Source: Shigella phage SHSML-45 | Sequence record: KX130863 | Length of the DNA: 64,000 nucleotides | Direction: 5' to 3' (one strand) | Shown here: positions 3,555 through 42,968 of the stretch, one piece after another | Layout: every line of letters starts with the position of its first letter | Numbering within the stretch: position 1 is the stretch's first letter | The notes under the pieces: generated by a model | Database searches by the model: none | Seen by the model: only the letters and a program-made list of their open reading frames with translations | What the model was told of the DNA's origin: nothing | Made by a program: the position numbers and the translations under genes

Positions 3555-4207
3555 ATTGATCTACCTAAAGATCTCTGTTGTGGGGAACAGAGCTTTGTTA
3601 AATACTCGTTAAATTTCTCAGAATCGGCTGCATCTACAGGATTATCTTTCCAAGCAATACCAATATATCCAGCATAGATATTGTTTAGATTGAAATAGGG
3701 ACAAGTGTATATGTAATTAAAAGTAACGTTCTTAAACGCAGGTATATTTAACCCCATGTATTTATTTACTTTTACACTTAAATCCGATGCGTAGTTAAAG
3801 CCTTCCAAGTGACGTCTATATAGCTCAGACGTTTTATTTACCGCTTTATCGGCCAAGTCAGCCCTATCTAATTGCGCATTGCTTTCCCATGCAATAATGT
3901 TAGAATAATCATTAATGGCATCGGGTTTATACTTGACGACAAAAACAGCATCCGCACCCGTTTGAGAAAAGAGTACCATGCTCTTTTCTCTAGCTACATT
4001 AGGAAAGTTATCTATCCTTTGAGTTTGAACATCCTGTAGAACCGCAGACGTGGAGAAAGTCTTTAAGAATGACATCACCTCGCTAGTATTACTAACAAAT
4101 AAGAAAATAATGACAGCAACTAAGATAGTTAGCAGACGTTTAAGAAGCGATGCTGGATCTTTCGCTTCTTGGAGCAGTACCGTTAATAATTGTAAGAACT
4201 TTTCCAA
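3551..4207 (-). CDS. membrane protein, candidate holin
   Basis: 218 aa with one N-terminal TM helix (ILVAVIIFLFV); directly upstream of and overlapping the endolysin gene. Confidence 0.35.
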   Translation of the reverse strand: MEKFLQLLTVLLQEAKDPASLLKRLLTILVAVIIFLFVSNTSEVMSFLKTFSTSAVLQDVQTQRIDNFPNVAREKSMVLFSQTGADAVFVVKYKPDAINDYSNIIAWESNAQLDRADLADKAVNKTSELYRRHLEGFNYASDLSVKVNKYMGLNIPAFKNVTFNYIYTCPYFNLNNIYAGYIGIAWKDNPVDAADSEKFNEYLTKLCSPQQRSLGRSI

Positions 4208-4320
4208 TTGTAACCTCCTCTAACCAGTACCATTATACTAATTTTGGAGGAAAATTACAATGTGTTTTTAAAGATCACTTCTGGAGCACAAAATTATGTC
4301 GTTGTCAAGAAGAATTTTAG

Positions 4321-4353
4321 ATAAAAGAAAAGCCAGGGTACTTAACCCTGGCT
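4321..4353 (-). terminator. rho-independent terminator
   Basis: Stem agccagggt/accctggct followed on the minus transcript by a U-rich run. Confidence 0.45.
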
Positions 4354-4362
4354 TAAAATTAC

Positions 4363-4962
4363 TTACTCTTCGTTGTGCTCCTCGGATTGAGGTAACTGAG
4401 CTTTATTATATTGCTCAGATCGATATTTTGCCAAGATTTCAGTACGCTTATGAATTTCCTTGCTATCTAGATAGATATTTTTGTTGTCTTTTACCATCTC
4501 GTCGATTTCATCTATTGAGAAGAACGGATAGTAGACATCTAGCATCATATCTTCTACAAACTTGTTGTAAGATTCATAGGCTTTCTTGATTTCTTGACCT
4601 TTCTCACAGAACCCGCCAGAGAACGTGTGCCCCATTAGCGTAGCATGTGGATGTACTACCCATCCATGACAAGATAGGAAAATTGTGCAGTAAGCAGAAG
4701 CACTAGGACCAATCAGGTGTCCTATAACTGTTCCACGGCAATTAGCAATTAAGTTAGATAACTGTGCAGCAGTATCAACATAACCACCTGGACCATTAAT
4801 CATCAGATTAATTTCGTCGTCCTCATTTGCCTGCATAAGTACCATTGATAAATCACGGTATTCATCCGGTGGGCCTAATTCTTCATCAAAGAAAAAGGTA
4901 TACTCGTTAGATTGGCGAATGGAGTGAAACAGGTTAGTCTTTTCTTCTTTTTTATTAGTCAT
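4363..4962 (-). CDS. ClpP-like serine protease
   Basis: INLMINGPGGYV and IGPSASAY resemble the ClpP INSPGG and GxSAS signatures. Confidence 0.55.
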   Translation of the reverse strand: MTNKKEEKTNLFHSIRQSNEYTFFFDEELGPPDEYRDLSMVLMQANEDDEINLMINGPGGYVDTAAQLSNLIANCRGTVIGHLIGPSASAYCTIFLSCHGWVVHPHATLMGHTFSGGFCEKGQEIKKAYESYNKFVEDMMLDVYYPFFSIDEIDEMVKDNKNIYLDSKEIHKRTEILAKYRSEQYNKAQLPQSEEHNEE

Positions 4963-11042: not shown

Positions 11043-11357
11043 TTACAGATCGGGGCGTTCATCTTCGAAACAGCCTGAGCTAATTCCTTCTCCGAATCCT
11101 ACAAAGCCATCAAATTCGTCATTTGAGATGCCCATAATCATTGCTTCCATTTTCCTAATCTCCGAGATTTTCATGCCTGCTTTACTATTCTTATAGTACT
11201 TGCGAGGGTTCCCACACATCCAACAAGAACAGATGCAAGGAGTAGTAGTGATAATACCTAACCGTTTAGGGCTTTCTTCATGTGGGAAGACTGTCCAATA
11301 CTTTTTGCGATTGTTCTTCACACGTTGCCGGTGATGGCGTCTCAATGCTCGATCCAC
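11043..11357 (-). CDS. Cys-rich small protein
   Basis: CICSCWMCGNP motif. Confidence 0.35.
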   Translation of the reverse strand: MDRALRRHHRQRVKNNRKKYWTVFPHEESPKRLGIITTTPCICSCWMCGNPRKYYKNSKAGMKISEIRKMEAMIMGISNDEFDGFVGFGEGISSGCFEDERPDL

Positions 11358-11438
11358 ACATTTCTCCTAAAACTTGGGAGATAAATGGAGTTTGCTCGAC
11401 TACCTTGCGTAGCTGGGAGAAATCGTATCCAAACCCCA

Positions 11439-11807
11439 TTACATCGCCTGAGTAAATGTACGACTAATAACGTCGTTCTGTTGTTCACGAGTCAGTGCGT
11501 TAAAACGTACAGCGTACCCTGAAACACGGATAGTTAATTGAGGGTATTTTTCAGGATGTTTCTGTGCATCCAAAAGCTGATCACGACTTAACACATTGAC
11601 ATTTAGGTGCTGACCTCCCTCGATTTGAGGAACTACTTCCACCTTGACTTCACGGAAGGATTCGGGGTCAAAATGTGGTGTGATACCTTCTAGATCCTCA
11701 ACCAGAACTTTTTGTTTAAGTTCACCATCTTTAGAGTACAGTTGAATAATCTGATTATCATGAACAAGATTAATTACGCCAGACTTAAGATTTTGATATG
11801 CTTTCAT
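11439..11807 (-). CDS. grcA: autonomous glycyl-radical cofactor (GrcA/YfiD-like)
   Basis: C-terminus [59 protein letters not shown] closely resembles the PFL/GrcA glycyl-radical domain (RVSGY); start placed at the Met with AGGAGA SD because the longer ORF would overlap a tRNA. Confidence 0.8.
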
Positions 11808-11820
11808 TAGCTCTCCTGTT

Positions 11821-11896
11821 TGGTAGTTAGTAGTGGATTTGAACCACTGTAGTCGCTCCGTATGAAGGAGGTGCATAACCACTCTGCCAACTAACT
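11821..11896 (-). tRNA. tRNA, anticodon CAT (Met, fMet or Ile2)
   Basis: Hand fold: acceptor AGTTAGT/ACTAACT, anticodon loop TTCATAC, T-arm GGTTCAAATCC, encoded CCA. Confidence 0.6.
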
Positions 11897-11992
11897 ATTA
11901 TGTTTTACTAGGCTAAGTAAGTATTCTTTATACTCTTTAGACCAACTAGCTTTTTTAAACTTTCCTGGACGCATAGCCTTAATTCCTAGATT

Positions 11993-12069
11993 TGGTACTC
12001 CGGGAGGGATTTAAACCCCCGATCTCTCGGTTATCAGCCGAGTGCTTTAGATCGCTAAGCTACCGAAGC
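11993..12069 (-). tRNA. tRNA-Ile (GAT)
   Basis: Acceptor GCTTCGG, anticodon arm CTCGG-CTGATAA-CCGAG, encoded CCA. Confidence 0.7.
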
Positions 12070-12084
12070 ATTAAAATATTTACA

Positions 12085-12375
12085 TCACACACTGTCTAAG
12101 TAAGAAGTATAGTGGAATTTAGTTTCTCCAGTATTATCTACTTCTACCTCAGTTCGTGGTACTTGACGAACCACACCATGAATCATCTTATATCGGATGC
12201 CTCTAGCTGGTTCATGATCTTTTGGAAATACTTGTTTAACCGTCACTACTTTATATTCTTCACGCGGTGTTAGCACTACTACTTGATCACCCTCTTTGAT
12301 TTTCCAAGAAGATGGAAATTCATAGGTGTATCTTTGACCACCGGTAAGGAATATAACAGAAAGATAACGTTTCAT
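12085..12375 (-). CDS. hypothetical protein (96 aa)
   Basis: ORF between tRNA genes with its own promoter-like motif upstream. Confidence 0.4.
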   Translation of the reverse strand: MKRYLSVIFLTGGQRYTYEFPSSWKIKEGDQVVVLTPREEYKVVTVKQVFPKDHEPARGIRYKMIHGVVRQVPRTEVEVDNTGETKFHYTSYLDSV

Positions 12376-12452
12376 TTGGTTTCCCTCTCATTAATTTATA
12401 TAAATATTATAGCAATAAATAAGAGAGAAAGCAAATGAGTTTTTCTTGAAAT

Positions 12453-12527
12453 TGGTAGCGGGTTCCAGTACTGCCCTGGACTTACTTAGCTTATGAGACT
12501 AAGAAGAACTCTATGCCTCCCACCCGC
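12453..12527 (-). tRNA. tRNA-like, anticodon CAT, non-canonical T-loop
   Basis: Anticodon arm TTAGT-CTCATAA-GCTAA folds, but the T-loop (GGCAGTA) and acceptor pairing are imperfect. Confidence 0.35.
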
Positions 12528-12535
12528 AATTGTTT

Positions 12536-12660
12536 GGTCATTCTAGGCAGGACTCGAACCTGCTATCACTTGTGCGGACTTACGAGAACCATTCTTTCAC
12601 TCGAATCGAACGAGCTTCTGCCCTCGCCAAGTTGGTTTCCCCATCAACCACGCTAGAATG
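12536..12660 (-). ncRNA. tRNA-like or structured RNA region (two T-arm-like motifs)
   Basis: GCAGG-TTCGAGT-CCTGC and GCTCG-TTCGATT-CGAGT T-arm-like hairpins in an ORF-free stretch; I could not fold a complete cloverleaf by hand. Confidence 0.3.
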
Positions 12661-12781
12661 TTAGATTGTTTTCAGTGCAAGAGTCCGAGTCTTGGACACG
12701 ACCGCTTCGCAAGTACATAGGCAGCTTATCATGAGTCAGCACTTCCGAATTGCTAGCTCCGTGTTCTGCACTGAAATTCTG

Positions 12782-13129
12782 TTAGTTTAATCGTAAAGTA
12801 TTATCTACTTCACCATTAATTGTTCGGCATTCCTCTGGGATTGCCGGGGTGGCCTTGTATTCCCACCACTCAGCACCATCATATTCCCCACGTTCTAGCC
12901 AAGTTCCATCGGCAAACCATACATTACCATAAAGTAATTGTCCACCGTATCCAGAATCATATTCAAAGTCTAGGTTATTAAGAAAATCCTCAATGTATTC
13001 TTCTGTATAACCTAAAGGTAATACCCAAACTTTTTTATCCCCATAATACCCGAATTCTATTTTAATACACTTAACTTTAGAATTGGTATTTTTTAAGGCG
13101 AGTAACAGCTCTTCTTTAGCATTACGCAT
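12782..13129 (-). CDS. hypothetical protein (115 aa)
   Basis: ORF, W/Y-rich. Confidence 0.4.
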   Translation of the reverse strand: MRNAKEELLLALKNTNSKVKCIKIEFGYYGDKKVWVLPLGYTEEYIEDFLNNLDFEYDSGYGGQLLYGNVWFADGTWLERGEYDGAEWWEYKATPAIPEECRTINGEVDNTLRLN

Positions 13130-13153
13130 AGTATATTCTCATACTGAATTATT

Positions 13154-13231
13154 TTGGCGCGACCGATGGGATTTGAACCCACATTCCCTCCCGTGACAGG
13201 GGAGTACCATTACCAAGCCAGCCCCGGTCGC
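13154..13231 (-). tRNA. tRNA-Asp (GTC)
   Basis: Acceptor GCGACCG, anticodon arm CTCCC-CTGTCAC-GGGAG, T-arm GGTTCAAATCC, encoded CCA. Confidence 0.7.
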
Positions 13232-13240
13232 ATAATTTAT

Positions 13241-13426
13241 TTACTCAGCTTTGAGTTTTTCAATAGCTGCATTAAGTTCTTTAAGAAACTCTTTTCGTAC
13301 ATTAAGACGATTGAGACTTACTAGTATATCATGTTTAAGTTCTTCGATGTATTTCTTCTCAACTTCAATATTGTTGATAGTGCTATCACGATGAACTTCT
13401 AGCTGCGCAATCACATTCTTGGACAT
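13241..13426 (-). CDS. small coiled-coil protein (61 aa)
   Basis: ORF. Confidence 0.3.
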   Translation of the reverse strand: MSKNVIAQLEVHRDSTINNIEVEKKYIEELKHDILVSLNRLNVRKEFLKELNAAIEKLKAE

Positions 13427-13453
13427 GCTTGTTTCCTCAGTTATTAATGAAAA

Positions 13454-13526
13454 TGGTATCTGTGGCTGAATTCGATGTCAGCAATGATAGCTGGTTGGCT
13501 ACCGGTTTACTTAACTCTACACAGAA
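13454..13526 (-). tRNA. tRNA-like (anticodon unresolved)
   Basis: Canonical 3' half (GCTGA-CATCGAA-TCAGC T-arm, acceptor, CCA) but the anticodon arm folds with a 6-nt loop. Confidence 0.35.
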
Positions 13527-13528
13527 TT

Positions 13529-13611
13529 TGGCGGGCCGTGTAGGATTCGAACCTACGTTGTCTTTCGACACGGATTAACAATCCGCCGCCAAACCGCTTG
13601 GCTAACGACCC
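13529..13611 (-). tRNA. tRNA with anticodon GTT (Asn) and an extended variable arm
   Basis: Acceptor GGGTCGT/ACGGCCC, anticodon arm GCGGA-TTGTTAA-TCCGT, 13-nt variable region, T-arm GTAGG-TTCGAAT-CCTAC, CCA. Confidence 0.5.
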
Positions 13612-13763
13612 TAAATTTATATTGCTGACTAGGATTTTCACCTAGACGGAGTTAGCACCGTAGCGTGTAGCGGCATACCTCTCCAAACCGTGCCTCATCT
13701 TTCAATTACGGAGACAGTGTTCCTACGCGTGCCTGAATTGATTTAACAATTCTTTCAGCAAAT

Positions 13764-13839
13764 TGGACGACCGCATGAGATTTGAACTCACATAAAAAGG
13801 ATTTGCAATCCTTCGCCTAAGCCATTCAGCCAACGGTCG
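13764..13839 (-). tRNA. tRNA-Cys (GCA)
   Basis: Anticodon arm AAGGA-TTGCAAA-TCCTT, T-arm GGTTCAAATC, CCA. Confidence 0.7.
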
Positions 13840-14017
13840 ATCTATCTTGTTTTTCGAGATCTTCAAATTCTAGATCATTGAAGTTCCCTAGAGTACGGGT
13901 GTAGAACCTATCTCCTGAGTCATAGCCTGATTTACCACAATCATACATTTTAAATTCACGAAGAGGTGTGAAAATGTGTTCAGAACCACAACACTTAAAT
14001 CTAACTAATCGTTTCAT
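13826..14017 (-). CDS. small protein (63 aa)
   Basis: ORF; its 3' end overlaps the tRNA-Cys call, so one of the two is misplaced. Confidence 0.25.
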   Translation of the reverse strand: MKRLVRFKCCGSEHIFTPLREFKMYDCGKSGYDSGDRFYTRTLGNFNDLEFEDLEKQDRSTVG

Positions 14018-14066
14018 TAGCTTCTCCAGTTCAATTTATGTAATTATTATATAGAACTTTTGGAAA

Positions 14067-14345
14067 CTAAGCGACTACATTTTTTAAGAATTTGATGCCT
14101 TTCTTTTTCTTCTTATATTTCCACGTTAATGGATTTTGTCGATTATGAGCGCTTGAGATCTTTGTCTCGTCAAAGTTCTTCAATATCATGTAATCACAGG
14201 ATAATTGTTCTAGTGGAATGTGATCACCGTCAAAAGCGTATACATAAGGCTGTTGACTAGCACGATAATGATAGACTTTGTTAATTCTACGTTTCAGCGA
14301 CTTATCCGCGCAGTAAATAAAGAAGTTTTCAGGATGCATCAGCAT
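14067..14345 (-). CDS. hypothetical protein (92 aa)
   Basis: ORF. Confidence 0.4.
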   Translation of the reverse strand: MLMHPENFFIYCADKSLKRRINKVYHYRASQQPYVYAFDGDHIPLEQLSCDYMILKNFDETKISSAHNRQNPLTWKYKKKKKGIKFLKNVVA

Positions 14346-14356
14346 CTACTTCAATT

Positions 14357-14440
14357 TGGTGCATCGTGATGGATTTGAACCACCAACCCCGAAGGGCACG
14401 GATTTACAGACCGCTGCAATAGACATTCTGCCAACGATGC
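14357..14440 (-). tRNA. tRNA-Tyr (GTA), class II
   Basis: Anticodon loop CTGTAAA identical to E. coli tRNA-Tyr, long variable arm GCCCTTCGGGG, T-arm GGTGG-TTCAAAT-CCATC, CCA. Confidence 0.65.
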
Positions 14441-14568
14441 ACATTTAAAAGTATTCAAATACTAGTTTAAACACTTTTAAATATGTTTCCAAATTAGATA
14501 ACTATTATACCAAGTTTTAAGGCACTGAGCAAGTCAAATTTCGAAGAACTTGCTCAGTGCTGTATTAG

Positions 14569-14844
14569 TTAGTCGAACTTAGGAGTGACAGTTAAGGAGA
14601 ACGGAAGTTCAAAAACTTCTTCCCCCTCATTACTAACTGTAACTACACGACCTTTAAGTTCAGACATTAAAATATCAATATCAGCTTTTGCATCTGGAGC
14701 CATGCCAGCTTCAACACATTTAGCTTTAACTTCCGGAAGGAGTTCTACATCGTAGAAATAAAGCCATTCAATCTCACCTTCCCAGCCTTCCCAGGATTTA
14801 CAGATTGCACTTTCAATACCAGTTGCTATAACACGATTTTGCAT
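14569..14844 (-). CDS. hypothetical protein (91 aa)
   Basis: ORF. Confidence 0.4.
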   Translation of the reverse strand: MQNRVIATGIESAICKSWEGWEGEIEWLYFYDVELLPEVKAKCVEAGMAPDAKADIDILMSELKGRVVTVSNEGEEVFELPFSLTVTPKFD

Positions 14845-14934
14845 TCGTTAACTCCTTCATCAATTTATATAACTATTATATCAGAAATTTAAAGTAAAAG
14901 GCAAGTACATTTTTAAAAATTCTATTCGGAGGAG

Positions 14935-15141
14935 CTAAACTCCAGATTCTTCGGCCAAGTCTAGACTAATAAGAGTTATAGCCATAATTGCCGCACCATG
15001 TTCTTTTTCCCCGGTGTTTTTAGCAGAGTCTATAATATCCTTAATCTGTTCGTAATAACTTTTTACTTCTTGTTCAATACCTGCCTCGGCTATCATGCCT
15101 TTAGTCATGATTCGTTGCATAGTAATTTCACGGTTAGCCAT
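14935..15141 (-). CDS. hypothetical protein (68 aa)
   Basis: ORF; a possible unlisted 39-codon ORF (15133-15249) overlaps its start in an ATGGCTAA arrangement. Confidence 0.35.
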   Translation of the reverse strand: MANREITMQRIMTKGMIAEAGIEQEVKSYYEQIKDIIDSAKNTGEKEHGAAIMAITLISLDLAEESGV

Positions 15142-15316
15142 GATGTTTCTCCAGCTTCATTTTTAATAGTTTACAAATGAAGTCAACGTCTTCATCTGTG
15201 CCTAGATCTCTATCTTCAAGAGTTGCCTTGAAGTTTTTCGTTAGTTCCATAAGAACTACTTCTCTAGAACGACGTGTTGGCGGGGGTGGATGTCTATACA
15301 TCTTATTTCCTTAATT

Positions 15317-15391
15317 TGGTGGGTCGGAGGAGAATCTAACTCCTACTCGTTAGCTTATGAGGCCACCGCTTTAACTTTAAGCTACCGACCC
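15317..15391 (-). tRNA. tRNA, anticodon CAT (Met-type)
   Basis: Acceptor GGGTCGG/CCGACCC, anticodon loop CTCATAA, encoded CCA; T-loop is non-canonical (TTAGATT). Confidence 0.5.
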
Positions 15392-15397
15392 TATGTT

Positions 15398-15486
15398 TGG
15401 CGGAAGAAGGGGGAATCGAACCCACAAGGCTATATTTCAAACCGACAGATTAGCAATCTGCTGCAATACCGTTATGCTATTCTTCC
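15398..15486 (-). tRNA. tRNA-Ser (GCT), class II
   Basis: Acceptor GGAAGAA, anticodon arm GCAGA-TTGCTAA-TCTGT, long variable arm, T-arm TGGG-TTCGATT-CCCC, CCA. Confidence 0.7.
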
Positions 15487-15507
15487 GAATTTATAAGATA
15501 TATTATA

Positions 15508-16026
15508 TTAGAAATTTAGCTTCATGGCAAGAAAATTTTTCAAGTTTTCGGTAGACATCTCATCCACATCTATAGGAGAAACAAACCCATTTAATTGTCT
15601 AGCAAACTTTTCGCCAGCAGGATCATTATCCCCAACAGCTACCAATTTAAAAGGTAGTAATTTCAATTGCTTTAATAGCGGTTTTCCTGGAGAAGAACCC
15701 AACATTGCTAGAGCAGGATACCCAGCATTATGTAATGCTACAGCCTTAAATACAGATTCAGCAATTAATACTACTTTTTCATCCCCATTGAGAGTTTCTA
15801 GTCCCCATACACACTGTGTAGTAGAATAAGTAAAATATCTAGCTTCAAAGGGGCACTTACCATGACCTTTTGGAGCAGAAGGATTATAAGTCTGATAGCC
15901 TCTCAACATTCCAGAGAAGTCATACAATGGGACTGTTAGCCATCCTTCTGGGCTTAACCAGCAGTGATATTTATCTGTATCAAACCCTCTAGATAAGAGA
16001 TGTTCTGTTAGTTCATCAATAGTCAT
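15508..16026 (-). CDS. hypothetical protein with Toprim-like DxD segment
   Basis: KLVAVGDNDPAGEKFA resembles a Toprim acidic motif; start moved to the Met with GAGAGGAA SD (MTIDELTEHL). Confidence 0.4.
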   Translation of the reverse strand: MTIDELTEHLLSRGFDTDKYHCWLSPEGWLTVPLYDFSGMLRGYQTYNPSAPKGHGKCPFEARYFTYSTTQCVWGLETLNGDEKVVLIAESVFKAVALHNAGYPALAMLGSSPGKPLLKQLKLLPFKLVAVGDNDPAGEKFARQLNGFVSPIDVDEMSTENLKNFLAMKLNF

Positions 16027-16246
16027 ACTAGATTCCTCTCTCAAATTTATAAATATATTATGCAGAGAATTTAGCATTCAAGCAATTGAATTTTTTAACT
16101 TTTTAGAGGAAAATCACAGGATGCTTAAGGGTAGCAGGTAAGTGGGTAGACCCCAAAATTGTTATCCCCACTTGATTTTCAATGTGATATAGTGTAAAGT
16201 ATTTGTCATAGCTGAGTGACCAAAGAGACACACTTATCCTCTACCT

Positions 16247-16287
16247 TAAAACAGAAAAGCCCTGCGCTCTCCAGGGAACACAGGGCT
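16247..16287 (-). terminator. rho-independent terminator
   Basis: gccctg...cagggc stem followed on the minus transcript by UUUUCUGUUUU. Confidence 0.45.
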
Positions 16288-16311
16288 TACTTCGAATATT
16301 ACGTGTGGGAA

Positions 16312-17259
16312 TTACTTGTTACGCATATCCATAATCATCTGGCCATCGTAACCAGTGCCAACTACTGTTTGAGGTACACCGCCTTGATATTTCTGAGCAC
16401 GAATCATTTCAACTTCTAGTTGTTTCCAGCGAATCATCTCAGGAGTAATAGTACGTTGCAGAGCGGCGTTAGCTTCGGCTTCCTTCTTAGCTGCGTACAG
16501 TTTAGCATCTGCATCACGTTCGTTTGCAATAGCTTGGTTGTTACGAGCTTCACGATCTGCTTCTGCTTGTTTAACCTTCTGCTGTGCTTCTTGTTCAACA
16601 CGAGCCAACTCAGCTTTCGCAGCATTAACTTGTTCCTCACGAACTTTGGTATTCTGTACCTGTTCCACGATTACAGGCGGCAAAGTAATATCCTGAAGGA
16701 ACACTTGCTTAACTGTGTAACCATAAGGGCGTGCATACTCTTCAACTTCCTGTTGAATTGCGGTTTGTAATTGAGCCTGGATTTTAGCATCAAACAAATC
16801 TTGTGCTTTAGGAACAGACTTACCGAACTCACGAATAGTGGACAGTAATTTTTCAGTTACATATTTGTCTAATGCTTGATCCTGGGTACCTGCGTTAATA
16901 CGGTTAATCGGTGCCTTAGAACCATCAAACTGCAACATAACAGTCAGGTCAACAGTGGATTTAAACTTATCCTGACTAGGAACCTGAAGTTTATCTAATT
17001 TTACAGCAATGTCTTTTGTACTAAAAGTATCGAAAGATGCAAATGGGTTTACAAGATGAAAACCAGGTAATACAGGATTAGGGTCTACTTTACCCAGAAA
17101 TGTTTGGGTTTTAACCGTACCATCAGAAACAATAGTATATGAATTAAAAGCTAGGATTAAACCTGCTAAACCAACTACAGCACCAATACCCCAACGTTTA
17201 ATAGTGCGAATTACTTTTTGCTCAGAAGTCAGTTCTTTCATATTTTTAGTATTAAACAT
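16312..17259 (-). CDS. SPFH/band-7 (prohibitin/HflC-like) membrane protein
   Basis: N-terminal TM (GIGAVVGLAGLILAF), SPFH-like core, then an Ala/Glu/Gln-rich coiled coil (EQVNAAKAELARVEQEAQQKVKQAEADREARNNQAIA) as in HflK/HflC. Confidence 0.65.
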   Translation of the reverse strand: MFNTKNMKELTSEQKVIRTIKRWGIGAVVGLAGLILAFNSYTIVSDGTVKTQTFLGKVDPNPVLPGFHLVNPFASFDTFSTKDIAVKLDKLQVPSQDKFKSTVDLTVMLQFDGSKAPINRINAGTQDQALDKYVTEKLLSTIREFGKSVPKAQDLFDAKIQAQLQTAIQQEVEEYARPYGYTVKQVFLQDITLPPVIVEQVQNTKVREEQVNAAKAELARVEQEAQQKVKQAEADREARNNQAIANERDADAKLYAAKKEAEANAALQRTITPEMIRWKQLEVEMIRAQKYQGGVPQTVVGTGYDGQMIMDMRNK

Positions 17260-17270
17260 ATATTTCCTTA

Positions 17271-17471
17271 TTATTTAGAAGAGTTAGCTACTACAGTTAC
17301 TTTAGTTGCAGAAATAAACAGGCTAGCATCCACAGCAAATTCAGGAGCTTTGATATCTCCATTATGAAATATGACTATACCGGAGACTACTTCAAATGCT
17401 AGTGCTGTAACATCGGTGGTATTTACTTGTGAATGTTCACCTACTACTTTTACTATATATCGTGTTTTCAC
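17271..17471 (-). CDS. small protein (66 aa)
   Basis: ORF directly upstream of the SPFH gene. Confidence 0.35.
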   Translation of the reverse strand: MKTRYIVKVVGEHSQVNTTDVTALAFEVVSGIVIFHNGDIKAPEFAVDASLFISATKVTVVANSSK

Positions 17472-17497
17472 TTTATTTTCCTAGCAGTTAATAAAAT

Positions 17498-17572
17498 TGG
17501 CCGAGGTGACAGGATTCGAACCTGCATAAAGGAATTTAGAAGACTCCTGCCTCTCCCTTAGACTACACCCCG
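17498..17572 (-). tRNA. tRNA-Arg (TCT)
   Basis: Acceptor CGGGGTG/CACCTCG, anticodon arm GGAGT-CTTCTAA-ATTCC, T-arm GGTTCGAATCC, CCA. Confidence 0.7.
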
Positions 17573-18074
17573 TTTAAGTATTTTTAAGAACTCTCGTAAA
17601 AACTCTTAAAAATACAGACGATACCGGGAGAGTCATAAGTCTCACTCATTAAGTATTTCAAGACAAAATACAGTAACGTCTATTATTTTCCAGTTTAAGT
17701 CAAGGTGACTTAGTGGTTATGTCCTGCGGTATACTGAGGACTCGGTTAGGTTAGGGTCATGACTCCCCACCTTTTGCTGCTACTCAACAGGAGTTATCGC
17801 GAATTACCTGTGCTATTGTGCACCATTAGTGACATCTCTCATGTCAGCATTTCCCACTTTGTGGATAGCTTGAAAAACTACTCCGATATGGAGAAAGAAC
17901 TTCACTATCCTAGAATACCTTCTAAAGTTCTTCTTTAGCCTGGACATAGTTAAATCGTAATAAAACTATTCAGCAGACTGGTTGGTTAGTCTGGAACCAA
18001 CTACCGCGTGGTTTAGGCAGTGCGCAACTAACCTCGGAAGCTTTTACGTTAAAAGCACCAGTTATCCAGTTCTT

Positions 18075-18146
18075 ACCGACCGTAGGATTCGAACCTACAT
18101 CTTCCACCAGTTACGGCTTGATAATACCGTTTATACTAGATCGGCA
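18075..18146 (-). tRNA. tRNA-like (anticodon unresolved; CCA not encoded)
   Basis: Perfect T-arm GTAGG-TTCGAAT-CCTAC and acceptor GCCGATC/GGTCGGT (two G-U pairs); anticodon arm did not fold by hand. Confidence 0.4.
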
Positions 18147-27315: not shown

Positions 27316-30300
27316 TTATAACTGACAGCCTCCTGATGCACAGCCTACTGCTTCTTCACCAGCTCCACCACCATTTTCAGTATTAAAATTAGCATAATAC
27401 CAAGTTTTTATACCATACTTAACAGCGATCATGAAGTCACGAACTACTACTGGGCCTGGAATGATTTCATTCTCGAATTTAGAGTAGTCATAATACGACT
27501 GGAAGCTTGAAGACTGATTCAGGAACTTCTGGTAAACAGCATTCCACTTAATATACTCTACCCTATCAATGTCATAAGCCAGTTTATAGCTCATTAATGT
27601 ATCCCAATCAGTTGCACCTGGAGCAATTGCAATTACTTTATTCACTGCACTACCCTTGATAGATACGATCTTACGGGGCGGTTCGATAGAGTTAGTAACA
27701 CCTAGCAGTACAGAGGAACTTTCACCTGGCATCTGAGCAGTCAGAACAGAGTTGCGCATACCATATTTCAGAATATCTGCACGCAGAGATTCCCAATCCA
27801 TTTCTAGACCTACAGTTACCAGTTCATCAACAGTTTTCTTGTACGTGTCGATTACCAGAGTTCCTTGCGAAGGCTTAGTACGATTAAACCAGTCACATGC
27901 ACCTTGTTCTTTAGCCAGACGTACAGAGGCTTTATGTAGGAAGTAGGACAGCTTTTCAGCTTCACGGTGAATCCAGTTACGGGCTTCAACACCTTCGTAA
28001 GCCAAACCTTCTGCTGCCATTGCACCTGCTGCGTTCATCAGACCAATACCAACGTTACGACGTTTCTTAGCCGTGTACTCCATAGTTGGGAATGGGTAAT
28101 CCTGAATCTCGATGATTGTATCAACGAATTTCAGAAGAATGTAGCAAGTTTTCTCCCATTCAGCCAGAGATTCCATACGACCTAGTACAACACCACCTAA
28201 GTTACACAGAGATACTTCACCAATATCTTCTGGACGCATATCGTCTAACTGATCTTGGGTCTTATACAGCTCCATAATGTGATGGAATGGACGGGTTGGC
28301 TGAGTAATTTCAACACAAAGGTTGGTCATACGAATCGGGTCAAGGAAGTTACCATGACGGTTAGATTCACCAATGTGATGAGCATACATACGCCCTGTTT
28401 CCATACGGATACGTAACCAAGTATCTAGGATTTCTTTTGCAGAGATTCTAGGAGCTGCTGGAATTGTTTTTCCTTCGTGGTCGATCTTTGTAAGAGAAGC
28501 CACACGTTTCTCCGCTGCCACGTAGATTTCTTCAAACTTAGCCTCATCTTCGCCATAAAACGCTTCATGAACTTCTGGTGCGTAGAAGTATGACATTAGC
28601 GTAATATCTTCATTTTTCAGATAACGTTTTAACAAAAGATTGTTGAAGCTCAGAGAATAATCCATCTTATCGATTTTATTCTCGTCTGTAGCACGTTGTT
28701 GCTTAACCTGCATCAACTGGATGATTTCAGGGTCAAAGTAAGGATAGGATACAGTAGCAGAACCACCACGGCTATTACCACAGACTATGGTATGCCCGTT
28801 ACGGCGCACTACTAACTTATTGGTGGGTACTTCCACACAATAAACTTTACCAATATACTCAACTTCAGTTTCCTTGATACCCTCTGCTGTCATATCTAGT
28901 TGGTCAAAATAGACATAGCAACGGTCTTTAGTGCTTGTATTTGAGCGTAATCCAGCAATTGCTGCTAGAGCCTGCACCACATGTTGTTGCCCTGCGTGGC
29001 TTGAGTATTCTCCAACATTTTCGGATTTCCAGTACCCATCCCACTCCATGATTTCTTTCAATGCTTCTTTCGCAGCATTAGATGTTAAATCCTTCTCTAG
29101 CAGGAAAGATAAGTCTTTCGAATAGTATAGCTGCCCATGCCCAATATGAATGGTAGTTACACCTTGTTCATTTAGCTTCTTAGAATATTTAAGACCTAAA
29201 TCATCTAGGATATGTACTAAACGATCTACCTTGCGTTGCTTTTTAAATCCGAAACGATACGCTCTACCTGTATTTGTTTCTACGATTGAACCATCAGCCT
29301 GCAATGCAATACGGAAGCGGTCTAGCATGGTGATAGTATCAGTACCATTTGTTTTCTGCGCTGAACCAAAATCTAGTGCATGGGTTCTTTTTGGTTGCCA
29401 ATCTTCTGCTAGGATTTTCTGATACCCAGGTTTACGTTGGATATTCTTATTATTATACGATACTTGACGGTATACCATAGTATGGTTAGGGGTTACTAGA
29501 AGATCTACCCCTCTTTTCTCGAAACGTAACATTGTACCTTCGTAATCATACTCGAACACATTAAGAGGTAATACCCATTCTAACCCCCTACTATCAGTAA
29601 TCTGAGCGACTAACTCATCTCCAGTAAGTTCTGAGAATAACTTCCAACCATTCTTAGTTAAGACTTCAGTATCCTCGGAGTAGCACTGTTGGGTATTTGC
29701 CTTTACTGAGCGGTCAATGTGTCGATAATATGGCAGTTTTCCGGAATGCGGGAATGCCCCATTTCGCACCGGATCAGCAATTGATCGGCTTTCAAGATGA
29801 TACCCGATTCCCGCTCTGGCTGCGACCATTTTGAAGACGATGTGCTCGGCTGTGTCGATTGAATCCAACGTGTCAGTGGAATCCACGAGGCAGCAACTAG
29901 CAAATCCACGGTCACTAGAACGCAAACCAACCAGTGGCGGCGTAGGAACGTTGATTTTGTGGAGCGACATTGCATTGTAGAGATCGATTGCATCTAGAAT
30001 TGTCCAGTTGGGTTGAGATAACATCGCCATTGCCATGCCCATATAGGCAAATTGCGGGGTTTCGTAAATTTCACCAGTGGCTATATTACGACGGGAATAT
30101 TTATCAAAGAACTGTTTCAGTCCACCACTAGTAAAAAGACGGTCACGATCGTGGTCTATAACCTGATTCAGAGCTTCAAATTGCTCATCGGTAATCCATG
30201 CACTCATGTCTTCCCATGCACCTACACTAACCATATGATCGTGGAAGAAGCGTAGAGAAGGTGGTTCGAAGGAATCATAAAGGCGTTTACGCATCTGCGC

Positions 30301-31662: not shown

Positions 31663-31867
31663 TCCTATAGTGTACTTCGCTTCTAACAGAGGATCAACAA
31701 AGAGATCTTGTTTATCAACTTACAAATATATTATAACAAGGTTTACAGCAAAAAGCAAGTATAATTTTAAATAAACCTATGATATTGCTTTTAAGTAAAA
31801 AATTTACTTGCTTATAAAGGTAGAAATATGATACTAGATAATCATTTATTTATATGCGAAATATTAC

Positions 31868-31896
31868 AGTATTAGATGGCGAAAGAAAATTTTAAT
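31868..31896 (+). promoter_or_regulatory. sigma70 consensus promoter (TTGACA-17-TATAAT)
   Basis: ttgaca 31868-31873, 17-bp spacer, tataat 31891-31896; first plus-strand promoter after the strand switch. Confidence 0.6.
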
Positions 31897-31952
31897 TGAC
31901 ATAGTGGATAATGTTTAGTATAATAGGTGTAAAAATTCTGTGGAGAAGTGGA

Positions 31953-32816
31953 ATGCCGAAAAAATTAACTCAAGAAGAAGTAGATAAATGCCTAGCCGAG
32001 CGTGGTTTTACTATGGTGGATAAGCCATATCAAAATTCTAGGTATAGGCATACGTATCAGTGTGAATACGGTCACCAATGGACAGCTAAATTTGACGCTA
32101 TTAGGAATGGAAAGACCAATTGTCCTACTTGCTCTATTAGTAGCCGTAAACTAGATATTGATAAAATTAATACTATATTACAGGACAGAGGTATTACATT
32201 GTTGAACGGCTATAAAAATAGTGCCGATATAAATACTAAATTTAGGTGTGTTTGTGGTCATGAGTGGGCTACTACACTTAATAGTATAATTAATAGAGGT
32301 AGTGGCTGCCCATCTTGTGCTGCTAATAAACAGAAACTTAGTGTTAATACTATAAATGATCGTCTTGCTGCCAGAAATATCAGAATAGTGGGTGAGTATA
32401 GTAATGCGAATACTAAGACCGCCTTTCTTTGTGGTGCAGGGCATAGGTGGGAAGCTACTCCAGGGTCTGTATTAAGGGGGAACGGTTGTCCTTACTGTAG
32501 TTATAGAGATTTAGAAAGTACTAGGATATATGTTATGTATAGCCCCTCACATGGGGTTAAAATAGGTAGGTCTAACAATCCAGAGCGTAGACTTCTACAT
32601 ATTAGATCTAGTAGCCACCTTATTGATTTGGAAATAATTAAAGTATTTGAAATTGGGGAATATAGTAGTGCAGTTCGAATAGAAAAATTAGCCCATAACT
32701 ACTTTAAAGAGCAGAATTGCCAGTACAAAGATTTTGACGGCGCTACGGAATTCTTCAATATTGAACCAAAAGTAGCTATAAAGTTTATCGAGGAAATAAT
32801 CAATGACAGAGAATGA
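31953..32816 (+). CDS. Zn-ribbon repeat protein with GIY-YIG-like (T5orf172-type) domain
   Basis: Four CxxC...CPxC repeats then YVMYSPSHGVKIGRS; start moved to MPKK (GGAG SD) because the ORF-track start overlaps the promoter. Confidence 0.5.
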   Translation: MPKKLTQEEVDKCLAERGFTMVDKPYQNSRYRHTYQCEYGHQWTAKFDAIRNGKTNCPTCSISSRKLDIDKINTILQDRGITLLNGYKNSADINTKFRCVCGHEWATTLNSIINRGSGCPSCAANKQKLSVNTINDRLAARNIRIVGEYSNANTKTAFLCGAGHRWEATPGSVLRGNGCPYCSYRDLESTRIYVMYSPSHGVKIGRSNNPERRLLHIRSSSHLIDLEIIKVFEIGEYSSAVRIEKLAHNYFKEQNCQYKDFDGATEFFNIEPKVAIKFIEEIINDRE

Positions 32817-34629
32817 ATTAATTGAGAATTGCAAAGGTCTGCTCACTCTAACTGCGGATAAGGACTTACAGCATAATAATGCTAATAAGCCTAGTGAGAT
32901 GTTCCATACTCAAAGAGACTTATTGGCCGGAGAAATCAACAAATATTTAGTATCGCAGGAATTACCCAAACATCTATTAGACGCCCATAATCTAGGTAAG
33001 ATACACATTCATGATATGGATTACAGGGCGCAGGGGTACACTAACTGTTGCTTAGTAGACCTTGGTGGCATGCTGAAGAATGGTACTAAAATTGGTAATG
33101 CAAATATTGAAACTCCTAAATCCATAACTACTGCATGTGCAATCACTGCTCAGATTATTGCCCAAGTATCTGGTGCTCAGTATGGTGGCACCTCTATTGA
33201 TCGTATCGACGAGGTTCTAGCCCCGTATGTCAGAAAGTCTTACAATAAACATCTGGGTCGTGGGCTACGTTGGCTCAAGGATGAAAGAAAAGCTGCTGTG
33301 TATGCTACTGAGCTTACTGAAAAAGAGTGTTATGATGCATTCCAAGCTCTAGAGTATGAAACTAATTCATTATTTAACTCTAATGGGCAGACCCCTTTTG
33401 TTACGCATGGCTTTGGATTAGGTCAGGAGTGGGAGGAAAGGATGATTCAGAAAGCCATCCTCCAAAATCGTATTAAAGGTTTAGGTGCTGCTGAGTCAAC
33501 CCCTATCTTCCCTAAACTAGTATTCTCAGTTAAAGAAGGGTTAAATAAAAATCCAGGCGATCCTAACTACGATATAAAACAGCTAGCACTTGAGTGTTCT
33601 GCTACCCGTATGTACCCAGACTATTTAAGCTATGAGAAAGTTGTAGCTGTTACTGGTGATTTTAAAGCCCCTATGGGTTGTCGTAGCTTTTTATCTGCTA
33701 TCCCCTCCGGAGAAATTGCAGGGCGCAATAATTTAGGTGTAGTGTCTATTAATCTACCTATGGTTGCTGCTGAGGCAGATGGGGTTTTTGAAGATTTCTG
33801 GGATATTCTGGACAAATATGTGGATGAGGCTTTTGAAGCTCATGATTTTTTCTTGGATAGACTTAAGAAAGTGAAGGCTAAACAAGCCCCTATTCTTTAT
33901 ATGCACGGTGGTTTTGGTGTGCGTTTAGATGGGGAAGAGTATGTATGGCCTATTTTTGAGGGTAGATCTTCTGTATCTCTTGGATACATTGGGGTCTATG
34001 AGATGTGCCAAATAATGTTTAGTCTACCACAAACCCATAGGGATTGTATTGAATTTACAGAAGAAGTTCTTACTCACCTAAAAAATCGTTGCGAAGTTAA
34101 AGCTAATGAGACTAATCTTGGATTTAGCTTATACGCTACCCCTAGTGAGTCTCTATGTAATCGTTTTAATAAATTACTAGAACGTAGATTCCCAGAGTAT
34201 TCTTGGTTAACAGACAAAGGCTATCTTACTAATAGTCACCATTTGGACGTAAGAGAGAAGGTAGCCCCAGATACTAAATTTGAGTACGAAGCTCATTTTA
34301 CCAAAATAGCTAATGGTGGTAATATATCGTTTGTGGAATTACCACAAATGAAAAAATTCCATAAAGCTCTTGAATACGTAGTAGATAAGGGACTAGAGTG
34401 TAGCCATTATATCGGTGTTAATATACCGATTGACGAGTGTTTCAACTGTGGATATATGGGTGAATCTATTGCCTCTGAGCGTGGGTTTGTATGTCCAAGT
34501 TGTGGGTCTGAAGAAATAGAGGTTACACGTAGGGTTTGCGGGTACCTGGGATCCCCGGGCAGTAGGCCTTTCAATTCTGGGAAACAAAAAGAAGTGCTTG
34601 GTAGAGTAAAACACTTAAATCTTAAGTAA
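32803..34629 (+). CDS. nrdD: anaerobic ribonucleoside-triphosphate reductase (class III NrdD)
   Basis: 608 aa; C-terminal zinc ribbon CFNCGYMGE...CPSCGS and glycyl-radical motif TRRVCGYLGS. Confidence 0.85.
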   Translation: MTENELIENCKGLLTLTADKDLQHNNANKPSEMFHTQRDLLAGEINKYLVSQELPKHLLDAHNLGKIHIHDMDYRAQGYTNCCLVDLGGMLKNGTKIGNANIETPKSITTACAITAQIIAQVSGAQYGGTSIDRIDEVLAPYVRKSYNKHLGRGLRWLKDERKAAVYATELTEKECYDAFQALEYETNSLFNSNGQTPFVTHGFGLGQEWEERMIQKAILQNRIKGLGAAESTPIFPKLVFSVKEGLNKNPGDPNYDIKQLALECSATRMYPDYLSYEKVVAVTGDFKAPMGCRSFLSAIPSGEIAGRNNLGVVSINLPMVAAEADGVFEDFWDILDKYVDEAFEAHDFFLDRLKKVKAKQAPILYMHGGFGVRLDGEEYVWPIFEGRSSVSLGYIGVYEMCQIMFSLPQTHRDCIEFTEEVLTHLKNRCEVKANETNLGFSLYATPSESLCNRFNKLLERRFPEYSWLTDKGYLTNSHHLDVREKVAPDTKFEYEAHFTKIANGGNISFVELPQMKKFHKALEYVVDKGLECSHYIGVNIPIDECFNCGYMGESIASERGFVCPSCGSEEIEVTRRVCGYLGSPGSRPFNSGKQKEVLGRVKHLNLK

Positions 34630-34636
34630 GCTAATC

Positions 34637-34670
34637 AGCCAGGTTGCTAGTCGACCTGGCTTTTATTTTA
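34637..34670 (+). terminator. rho-independent terminator
   Basis: Stem agccaggt/acctggct followed by TTTTATTTTATTT. Confidence 0.55.
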
Positions 34671-34671
34671 T

Positions 34672-34700
34672 TTGCTTTCAGCTAAAAATATATGTATAAT
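34672..34700 (+). promoter_or_regulatory. early promoter (TTGCTT-17-TATAAT)
   Basis: ttgctt 34672-34677, tataat 34695-34700, then conserved ATAAATTTGAGAGGAG leader and ATG at 34729. Confidence 0.55.
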
Positions 34701-34728
34701 AGATTTATAAATTTGAGAGGAGAAAGCT

Positions 34729-35010
34729 ATGAGAGAGTTGCTTCCTAAAGTAGATGTCTCCCATCTTGGAGAGCCTAGTGAAGAACGTAAGGCTCTAGAT
34801 TGGTTGGGTGGATTTGATTATCGTCGTGTTGTTGCAACATGGAATGATAAGAAAGTTAAGAAGTTTCGGGTACATTATGTAGGTAAAGACAAGTGGCTCT
34901 GGATTGATTATGAAGAATCGAAGGGGTCTACTAAGGCTGTGAAAATTTATTGTATGTATGGGTATTATTATGCTCACTGTGACAAGAATGAATTTACAGT
35001 ACAGAACTAA
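34729..35010 (+). CDS. hypothetical protein (93 aa)
   Basis: ORF with promoter and SD. Confidence 0.45.
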   Translation: MRELLPKVDVSHLGEPSEERKALDWLGGFDYRRVVATWNDKKVKKFRVHYVGKDKWLWIDYEESKGSTKAVKIYCMYGYYYAHCDKNEFTVQN

Positions 35011-35019
35011 GGAACAAGA

Positions 35020-42937: not shown

Positions 42938-42968
42938 ATTTATATAAATTGATGAGAGATATAAATAA

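What the first reader, a model, noticed from the sequence alone, without database searches (positions are those of the whole stretch)
11439..11807. GrcA-like glycyl-radical spare part, with class III RNR but no nrdG in the window
The ORF ends with a near-canonical glycyl-radical domain ([33 protein letters not shown]), the signature of GrcA/YfiD, which in E. coli replaces the oxygen-damaged radical domain of pyruvate formate-lyase. The window also carries nrdD (32803-34629, RVCGY radical site) but no ORF shows a radical-SAM CxxxCxxC activase motif. This suggests the phage relies on host activases and may use the spare part to support anaerobic metabolism.
Basis: partly seen in the sequence, partly recalled or inferred. 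Interest (0 to 1): 0.65.

Follow-up and report, generated by a model that had tools for sequence, protein, structure and literature searches.

The report
Phage copy of GrcA spare part
This T5-like Salmonella phage carries a small GrcA-type "spare part" gene for oxygen-damaged host pyruvate formate-lyase and an anaerobic ribonucleotide reductase with no activating enzyme of its own; both features are real but already annotated or described for T5-like and T4 phages, so the finding is correct and ordinary.

Summary
Window 11439-11807 (-) encodes a 122-aa protein. Its last 61 residues are a glycyl-radical domain (Pfam E=4.7e-18), 80% identical to the PflB C-terminus and 74% identical to E. coli GrcA. 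It aligns end to end (53%) with T4-type vs.6, which I take to be T4 Y06I, the phage spare part shown biochemically in 2001. The window is a Shivani-like Tequintavirus. An identical protein is already annotated "autonomous glycyl radical cofactor", and about 435 T5-like and over 1000 T4-like phage records carry a homologue.

NrdD (32803-34629) is intact and of the E. coli/T4 formate-using type. No NrdG or PflA homologue exists in the window or in the closest complete genome. Record counts suggest that T5-like phages as a group lack nrdG. NrdD-only phages were described in 2013.

One correction: the ORF next to grcA (11043-11357) does contain CxxxCxxC, but it is a 104-aa, T5-specific protein and not a radical-SAM enzyme.

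Best reading: host PflA activates the phage GrcA, which rescues host PFL. Host NrdG activates the phage NrdD. PFL-derived formate may feed NrdD; that last link is inference only. Already known, low interest.

The parts
11439..11807 (-). grcA-like CDS: a 122-aa autonomous glycyl-radical protein (Shivani gp058; PHROG 1209; orthologue of T4-type vs.6)
   Evidence: ORF and translation. Pfam Gly_radical E=4.7e-18. phrog_1209 matched end to end, E=9e-48. 53% identity over the full length to RB32 vs.6. A 100% identical protein is annotated 'autonomous glycyl radical cofactor' in PV654516.
11442..11624 (-). C-terminal glycyl-radical domain (residues 62-122); RVSGY motif with the radical glycine Gly97 at codon 11517-11519
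   Evidence: 80% identical to PflB 700-760 and 74% identical to E. coli GrcA 54-127. 43 invariant columns across phage and bacterial GrcAs. The AF2 model best matches YfiD NMR structure 6owr and PFL structure 2pfl. Codons checked.
11625..11807 (-). N-terminal half (residues 1-61): divergent from E. coli GrcA but shared with T4-type and jumbo-phage GrcAs (MKAYQ...)
   Evidence: BLASTP to E. coli GrcA covers only residues 51-122. TIGR04365 matches only residues 50-122 and stays below its cutoff. The full-length alignment to vs.6 is.
11813..11817 (-). Ribosome-binding site AGGAG, 5 nt upstream of the ATG
   Evidence: Sequence. Annotated as an RBS in NC_028754.
11821..11896 (-). tRNA-Met, co-oriented, ending 13 nt upstream of the grcA start. 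grcA sits at the downstream end of the T5-type tRNA cluster and is probably co-transcribed with it.
   Evidence: ARAGORN places all ten tRNAs between 11821 and 18146 on the minus strand. No convincing promoter or terminator lies between the tRNA and grcA.
32803..34629 (+). nrdD: class III (anaerobic) ribonucleotide reductase catalytic subunit, 608 aa, no ATP-cone. It has Cys82, Met291-Gly-Cys293, a Zn ribbon (C546/C549/C564/C567) and Gly580 (codon 34540-34542).
   Evidence: NF006732 790 bits, cutoff 657. Pfam NRDD E=1e-156. Residue mapping against E. coli NrdD, 53% identity. Codons checked.
11043..11357 (-). gp057 (T5 ORF053/T5.055 family), the gene next to grcA. It is the only real ORF in the window with a CxxxCxxC pattern (CICSCWMC, 11214-11237). 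It was evaluated and excluded as an activase.
   Evidence: Motif scan. No Pfam or NCBIfam family. No similarity to NrdG or PflA. 104 aa. Conserved RRHHR and TPCxCSCxMCxxPRK motifs, with the first Cys of the CxxxCxxC pattern not invariant. Homologues are almost all T5-like phage proteins or contigs of about 100-120 kb.

Best explanation
The ORF is a phage-borne member of the GrcA/YfiD 'spare part' family, and it is the T5-group orthologue of T4-type vs.6 (taken to be T4 Y06I). The proposed mechanism has four steps.

1. The gene is expressed early, from the tRNA-cluster transcript.
2. The host radical-SAM activase PflA abstracts a hydrogen from Gly97 and installs a glycyl radical.
3. The C-terminal domain, which is 80% identical to PflB 700-760, inserts into host PflB whose own radical domain has been cut off at Gly734 by oxygen.
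4. This restores pyruvate + CoA -> acetyl-CoA + formate in microaerobic or fluctuating-oxygen gut conditions.

The phage NrdD likewise has no phage activase and must receive its Gly580 radical from host NrdG. NrdD is of the E. coli/T4 type, which uses formate as reductant, so keeping PFL alive plausibly also secures the reductant for anaerobic dNTP synthesis, as well as ATP through acetyl-CoA.

What is shown here: domain identity, family membership, catalytic residues, and absence of any activase gene. What is inferred by homology to T4 Y06I and E. coli YfiD: steps 2-4. The formate link to NrdD is inference only.
For: The protein has a glycyl-radical domain, with Pfam E=4.7e-18. It is 80% identical to the PflB C-terminus and 74% identical to E. 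coli GrcA. The closest solved sequences are YfiD 6owr and PFL, and the AF2 C-terminal domain superposes on 6owr and 2pfl.

It shows full-length 53% identity to T4-type vs.6 and a full-length match to PHROG 1209. Y06I and YfiD are the two biochemically validated spare parts; both are activated by PFL-AE and rescue O2-cleaved PFL (PMC8683613).

The gene is conserved in about 435 T5-like records at 80% identity or more, and in 1584 phage records overall. Its GC content is 39.6%, matching the phage (38.9%) rather than E. coli grcA (47.9%), so it is a long-resident gene.

No NrdG or PflA homologue and no CxxxCxxC-bearing ORF of activase size exists in the window or the whole reference genome. Record counts agree: NrdD is found in 2917 phage records and NrdG in 2273. 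The differences for Salmonella (399-126=273) and Escherichia (1057-928=129) match the numbers of T5-like records (275 and 132).

NrdD keeps Cys82, Met291, Cys293, the Zn ribbon and Gly580. Its last 70 aa are 64% identical to E. coli NrdD, against 48.5% for T4 NrdD, which has its own NrdG. The Gly loop TRRVCGYLGSP..RPFN.GKQ.EV is the same as in the host. Formate is the reductant of the E. coli and T4 NrdD types (PMC4493059).
Against: Nothing here is biochemical. The protein scores 121 bits against the NCBIfam GrcA equivalog model, whose cutoff is 170, because its N-terminal half does not match the E. coli-type N-terminus. In YfiD that half matters for binding cleaved PFL and for efficient activation, so partner specificity could differ.

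The formate link is untested. No co-occurrence statistic with phylogenetic correction was possible.

The T5-like versus T4 difference in similarity of the Gly loop to the host rests on three sequences.

The equation of T4-type vs.6 with Y06I rests on my own knowledge and on RB32 gene naming. I did not check it against the T4 record.
Confidence: 0.8

Rival explanations
1. The small protein is a spare radical domain for the phage's own NrdD (or for host NrdD) rather than for PFL.
For: Both genes lie in one phage genome. All glycyl-radical enzymes suffer the same O2 cleavage, and spare parts for other such enzymes have been speculated about (PMC8683613).
Against: BLASTP of the protein against the phage NrdD finds nothing (best E=16), whereas it is 80% identical to the PflB C-terminus. 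Its motif is RVSGYAV, the PFL type, not RVCGYLG. The NrdD radical domain includes a Zn ribbon that this protein lacks.
Confidence: 0.04
2. It is a decoy that soaks up host PflA or blocks PflB, shutting down host fermentation as part of host takeover.
For: The N-terminal half differs from E. coli GrcA, and in YfiD that half governs binding and activation. Early-gene location.
Against: The radical domain is under extreme conservation, including Gly97 and every residue invariant in functional GrcAs. The T4 orthologue restores PFL activity rather than inhibiting it. A decoy would not need a perfect catalytic-site replica.
Confidence: 0.06
3. It is a non-functional remnant of a captured pflB/grcA 3' end (a gene fragment).
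For: Only the C-terminal 60-70 residues resemble bacterial proteins strongly. Several records annotate it vaguely, as 'acetyltransferase', 'pyruvate formate-lyase' or 'hypothetical'.
Against: It is an intact ORF with a strong RBS. It is conserved at 89-100% identity across hundreds of T5-like genomes, and over its full length with T4-type and jumbo-phage homologues. Its GC content has drifted to the phage value. Stand-alone proteins of this size are the normal form of the family.
Confidence: 0.03
4. A cryptic phage activase exists: gp057, with its CxxxCxxC motif next to grcA, or gp139 downstream of nrdD. The phage would then not depend on host activases.
For: gp057 carries CICSCWMC and abuts grcA. 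gp139 sits where nrdG lies in other phages and shows a 22-aa match to NrdG 87-108 (pairwise E=2e-4).
Against: gp057 is only 104 aa. It has no Radical_SAM or Fer4 hit even at E<=1 and no similarity to NrdG or PflA. The first Cys of its CxxxCxxC pattern is not invariant, while RRHHR and CxCxxC are, which looks like a small zinc or nucleic-acid-binding protein. For gp139, the profile-profile probability against NrdG is 0.5%, the matching motif is lost in its own homologues, and it has no Cys cluster.
Confidence: 0.03

Closest known systems
E. coli GrcA (YfiD), autonomous glycyl radical cofactor (TIGR04365; PDB 6owr)
   Same: Stand-alone protein of about 125 aa. The C-terminal glycyl-radical domain is 74% identical, with an identical [14 protein letters not shown] core. 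It is the best hit among solved structures by sequence and by fold.
   Different: The N-terminal ~50 residues are not detectably similar by BLASTP. The score is below the NCBIfam equivalog cutoff, 121 against 170 bits. The gene is phage-encoded and sits in a tRNA cluster.
Bacteriophage T4 Y06I (taken to be gene vs.6), the validated phage spare part for PFL (Wagner et al. 2001, as cited in PMC8683613)
   Same: Same PHROG (1209). Alignment is end to end, with 53% identity to T4-type vs.6 of RB32 and the same MKAYQ start. Both rely on host PflA, because neither phage encodes a PflA.
   Different: The T4-type C-terminal domain matches E. coli GrcA at every aligned position, whereas the T5-type has its own substitutions ([10 protein letters not shown]..., [13 protein letters not shown]...TQAM). 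T4 also encodes its own NrdG, and this phage does not. The identity of vs.6 with Y06I is from my own knowledge and was not checked against the T4 record.
C-terminal radical domain of pyruvate formate-lyase PflB (residues ~700-760)
   Same: 80% identity and 95% similarity over 61 residues with no gaps. The AF2 domain superposes on 2pfl at 2.8 A over 50 columns.
   Different: It lacks the ~700-residue catalytic barrel, so it can act only as a replacement piece.
T4 / E. coli class III RNR NrdD-NrdG systems
   Same: NrdD is 53% identical to E. coli NrdD with all catalytic, Zn-ribbon and glycyl residues present. It lacks an ATP-cone, like T4 NrdD.
   Different: No nrdG is present. This is the NrdD-only arrangement with nrdAB and phoH already described for T5, EPS7 and SPC35 (PMC3653736). 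Vibrio members of the same virus family (Thalassavirus Dax) do keep an nrdG.

Membership tests
GrcA/YfiD autonomous glycyl radical cofactor | Small stand-alone protein (~80-130 aa) that is not fused to a catalytic barrel | tested here: met
   122 aa between an RBS/ATG and a TAA stop. The flanking features are a tRNA and a separate ORF.
GrcA/YfiD autonomous glycyl radical cofactor | C-terminal Gly_radical domain (PF01228) with the RVSGYAV fingerprint | tested here: met
   E=4.7e-18, 66.1 bits against a cutoff of 22.2. RVSGYA with Gly97 confirmed.
GrcA/YfiD autonomous glycyl radical cofactor | Radical domain is a near-copy of the PflB segment lost on O2 cleavage | tested here: met
   80% identity to PflB 700-760.
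GrcA/YfiD autonomous glycyl radical cofactor | Passes the curated NCBIfam equivalog model TIGR04365 (cutoff 170 bits) | tested here: not met
   121.1 bits, with only residues 50-122 aligned. It therefore belongs to the broader family and its phage subfamily, not to the E. coli-type equivalog.
GrcA/YfiD autonomous glycyl radical cofactor | N-terminal half homologous to the bacterial GrcA N-terminus (important for cleaved-PFL binding and activation) | tested here: inconclusive
   There is no BLASTP match to the E. coli N-terminus. Vibrio GrcAs do align over 82-86% of the query. A multiple alignment shows a graded series with Gln5 nearly invariant.
GrcA/YfiD autonomous glycyl radical cofactor | Glycyl radical installed by PflA; restores activity of O2-cleaved PFL | not testable with these tools
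   Shown only for E. coli YfiD and T4 Y06I (PMC8683613).
Phage GrcA subfamily (PHROG 1209; T4-type vs.6) | Full-length similarity including the N-terminal half | tested here: met
   phrog_1209 positions 1-121 of 121, E=9.4e-48. 53% identity over residues 1-122 to RB32 vs.6.
Class III ribonucleotide reductase NrdD (E. coli/T4 type) | Curated model score and catalytic residues: thiyl Cys with Met two residues upstream, second active-site Cys, Zn ribbon, C-terminal RVCGY glycine | tested here: met
   NF006732 790.5 bits against 657, and TIGR02487 534 bits against 326. Cys82, Met291, Cys293, C546/549/564/567 and Gly580 are present.
Class III ribonucleotide reductase system (NrdD + NrdG) | Cognate radical-SAM activase NrdG encoded alongside | tested here: not met
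   tblastn, phmmer and a four-sequence NrdG profile run with --max over six frames of the window and the whole NC_028754 genome gave only short chance-level matches. No CxxxCxxC-bearing ORF of activase size exists.
Glycyl-radical-enzyme activase (radical SAM; NrdG/PflA), tested for gp057 at 11043-11357 | CxxxCxxC cluster motif within a Radical_SAM/Fer4_12 domain of at least ~150 aa | tested here: not met
   The pattern is present, but the protein is 104 aa and has no Pfam hit at E<=1 except a noise SinI match. There is no NCBIfam hit. The first Cys is not invariant in homologues.

The most novel reading that the evidence does not exclude
The phage grcA and nrdD may form one functional module that runs entirely on borrowed host radical-SAM activases. 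Host PflA would arm the phage GrcA, which keeps host PFL producing formate when oxygen fluctuates. That formate would be the obligatory reductant for the phage's formate-type NrdD, which is itself armed by host NrdG. The unusually host-like glycine loop of NrdD would be the signature of that dependence. Host pflA and nrdG would then be conditional host factors for T5-like phages in the anaerobic gut.
Probability: 0.3. Interest if true: 0.45.

Novelty: already known. Interest (0 to 1): 0.15.

Why it matters
It matters little for discovery. The gene family, its mechanism (through T4 Y06I and E. coli YfiD) and the NrdD-without-NrdG arrangement in T5-like phages are all on record, and identical proteins are already annotated as GrcA.

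There is some practical value. T5-like Salmonella and E. coli phages are candidates for biocontrol and therapy in the largely anoxic gut. Their anaerobic dNTP supply would depend on two host activases, PflA and NrdG, and possibly on PFL-derived formate. That is a simple, testable prediction about host factors and oxygen-dependent efficacy. The record for phage Shivani also mislabels the gene as 'acetyltransferase' and gives the tRNAs the wrong strand.

Tried and rejected
1. gp139 (34729-35010), directly downstream of nrdD, as a decayed nrdG. It has a 22-aa match to NrdG 87-108. I rejected it because hhalign gives a probability of 0.5% and E=0.12, and the matching GKDKWLWIDY motif is not kept in its own homologues.

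2. gp057 with CxxxCxxC as an activase. Rejected.

3. A 25-aa match of T4 NrdG to record positions 13523-13669 of NC_028754, outside the window (phmmer E=7e-4). It lies in a 49-aa stop-free stretch with no Cys motif, and the four-sequence profile gives E=0.18. I treated it as chance.

4. GrcA as a spare part for NrdD. There is no similarity.

5. The N-terminal half as a folded beta domain specific to phages. AF2 predicts four strands at pLDDT ~82. A control run on an enterobacterial GrcA predicts the same kind of sheet at the same confidence. That control N-terminal half is nearly identical to that of E. coli YfiD, which NMR shows to be disordered. The prediction therefore does not discriminate, and I claim no difference.

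6. Literature search for an explicit discussion of GrcA in T5-like phages, or of host-NrdG dependence. Nothing was found in the held library. Only database annotations and the general statement in PMC3653736 exist.

7. Promoter and terminator scan around grcA. Nothing rose above shuffled expectation.

Full report
**Identity of the window.** Megablast of 10500-13000 hits Salmonella phage Shivani (NC_028754, Demerecviridae, Tequintavirus) at 100% identity and hundreds of T5-like phages at 90-95%. Over the full length the window is 99.2% and 97.9% identical to Shivani, not identical, so it is a Shivani-like T5 relative. In the Shivani record the ORF in question is gp058, labelled 'acetyltransferase, glycine radical domain'.

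**The observation.** The ORF runs 11807->11439 on the minus strand. It has an ATG preceded by AGGAG at 11813-11817 and ends in TAA. The longer GTG-started version listed mechanically (147 aa) would run through tRNA-Met, and all homologues start at MKAYQ, so 122 aa is right.

- Pfam Gly_radical: E=4.7e-18, 66 bits against a cutoff of 22.
- Residues 62-122 are 80% identical, ungapped, to PflB 700-760.
- Residues 51-122 are 74% identical to E. coli GrcA.
- The radical glycine is Gly97.
- The best solved relatives by sequence are YfiD (6owr, E=2.5e-30) and PFL.
- An AF2 model (mean pLDDT 74) matches 6owr and 2pfl in its C-terminal domain.

**Family placement.** The protein matches PHROG 1209 end to end. 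It is 53% identical over its whole length to T4-type vs.6 of RB32, with the same MKAYQ N-terminus. I take vs.6 to be T4 Y06I; that equation is from my own knowledge and gene naming, and I did not check it against the T4 record. Y06I and E. coli YfiD are the two spare-part proteins shown biochemically to be activated by PFL-AE and to rescue oxygen-cleaved PFL (Wagner et al. 2001, as summarised in PMC8683613).

Against the curated NCBIfam GrcA equivalog model the protein scores 121 bits, below the cutoff of 170. Only residues 50-122 align. The N-terminal half diverges from the E. coli type, but it connects to bacterial GrcAs through Vibrio sequences and jumbo-phage homologues.

tblastn finds the protein in 1584 phage records. 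About 435 are T5-like at 80% identity or more, and over 1000 are T4-like. Many are already annotated 'autonomous glycyl radical cofactor GrcA', including a 100% identical protein in PV654516. The gene's GC content (39.6%) equals that of the phage (38.9%) rather than E. coli grcA (47.9%), so it is an old resident.

**NrdD.** The ORF at 32803-34629 passes the NCBIfam NrdD equivalog models. Alignment to E. coli NrdD (53% identity) shows the following:

- loss of the N-terminal ATP-cone, as in T4;
- conservation of Cys82, Met291-Gly-Cys293 (E. coli Met382/Cys384), the four Zn-ribbon cysteines and Gly580.

This is the E. coli/T4 type, for which formate is the reductant (PMC4493059, citing Mulliez 1995).

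**Absence of an activase.**
- I took real NrdG sequences from E. coli, T4, Vibrio phage VMJ710 and the Vibrio demerecvirus Dax, plus E. coli PflA.
- I searched all six frames of the window and of the entire Shivani genome with tblastn, phmmer and a profile run with --max. Only short chance-level matches appeared.
- A six-frame CxxxCxxC scan found one real ORF in the window. Outside the window it found none in a stop-free stretch longer than 38 aa.
- Population counts agree. NrdD occurs in 2917 phage records and NrdG in 2273. The surplus of NrdD over NrdG among 'Salmonella' (273) and 'Escherichia' (129) phages matches the number of T5-like records (275 and 132).
- Dwivedi et al. 2013 already noted that many phages carry nrdD with nrdAB but no nrdG. 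They separately described the nrdD-phoH-nrdAB layout for T5, EPS7 and SPC35.
- Vibrio members of the same virus family do have an nrdG near nrdD.

**The one error in the finding.** gp057 (11043-11357, minus strand), immediately downstream of grcA, contains CICSCWMC. It is 104 aa and belongs to the T5 ORF053/T5.055 family. It has no Pfam or NCBIfam family and no similarity to NrdG or PflA. Across homologues the invariant features are an N-terminal RRHHR and CxCxxC within TPCxCSCxMCxxPRK; the first Cys of the CxxxCxxC pattern is replaceable. It looks like a small zinc or nucleic-acid-binding protein, not a radical-SAM enzyme. A second lead also failed: the 22-aa match of gp139 (just downstream of nrdD) to NrdG.

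**Mechanism.** The best-supported account follows the T4 Y06I / E. coli YfiD precedent. The phage protein is armed at Gly97 by host PflA, and it replaces the oxygen-severed C-terminus of host PflB. It is not tailored to NrdD.

NrdD must be armed by host NrdG. Consistent with this, the last 70 residues of both the Shivani-type and T5-type NrdD are 64% identical to E. coli NrdD, with the same TRRVCGYLG.P..RPFN.GKQ.EV loop. The figure for T4 NrdD, which brings its own NrdG, is 48.5%. This rests on only a few sequences and is suggestive at most.

PFL makes formate and this NrdD type consumes it, so the two phage genes may cooperate. That is my inference, and I found no paper stating it for T5-like phages.

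**Control on structure.** AF2 predicts an ordered beta-sheet for the N-terminal half. It does the same for an enterobacterial GrcA. That control N-terminal half is nearly identical to that of E. coli YfiD, which is disordered by NMR. I draw no structural distinction.

**Verdict.** Interest is low. The only mildly new angle is the GrcA-PFL-formate-NrdD coupling and the double dependence on host activases, which is a cheap genetic experiment.

Noticed in passing
window 11821-18146: ARAGORN places all ten tRNA genes on the minus strand, co-oriented with the surrounding CDSs. The NC_028754 record annotates them on the plus strand, which looks like an annotation error in the public record.
   Followed up: yes
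window 11278-11439 (-): A 53-aa ORF ([19 protein letters not shown]...) starts with an ATG that overlaps the grcA stop (TAATG), and it overlaps the start of gp057 in another frame. In Yersinia phage phiR2-01 the same N-terminal peptide is fused in frame to the gp057 homologue (P0084, 121 aa). In Shivani- and T5-type phages the gene is therefore split or frameshifted, or a short coupled upstream ORF exists.
   Followed up: partly
window 11043-11357 (-): gp057 (T5 ORF053 family) has invariant RRHHR and TPCxCSCxMCxxPRK motifs and an acidic DEFDGF tail. It is an uncharacterised small Cys-rich basic protein whose homologues are almost all T5-like phage proteins or contigs of about 100-120 kb. Its function is unknown.
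   Followed up: partly
window 31850-35020 (nrdD and flanks): NrdD here is only 61% identical (protein) and about 67-69% identical (DNA) to T5 NrdD, while the flanking DNA is 94-96% identical. Only 49 phage records carry this allele at 95% identity or more, against 479 at 60-80%. This is a mosaic replacement of the nrdD segment within Tequintavirus.
   Followed up: partly
window 31953-32816 (+): The ORF just upstream of nrdD overlaps its start. It combines repeated treble-clef zinc-finger/CapR modules with a T5orf172/MUG113 (GIY-YIG-like) domain. It is absent at this position in T5. It may be a mobile endonuclease linked to the nrdD allele swap.
   Followed up: no
window 27316-30618 (-): The class Ia RNR large subunit NrdA is 1100 aa and carries an intein-like insertion (...QQCYSEDTEVLT...VCGNS...). 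The Shivani record annotates it as 'contains intein splice site'. An HNH endonuclease gene also sits between nrdA and nrdB.
   Followed up: no
window approx. 42966-43940 and 44143-44922 (+): The near-identical Shivani record lists two adjacent CDSs that are both called NAD-dependent DNA ligase, i.e. a split ligase. The coordinates were transferred approximately from the record.
   Followed up: no
L010 (Vibrio phage Dax, Demerecviridae) 4001-4483: The nrdG homologue of this Vibrio demerecvirus (57% identical to E. coli NrdG) is annotated only as 'hypothetical protein'. It is separated from nrdD by three ORFs. nrdG presence therefore differs between subfamilies of Demerecviridae.
   Followed up: partly
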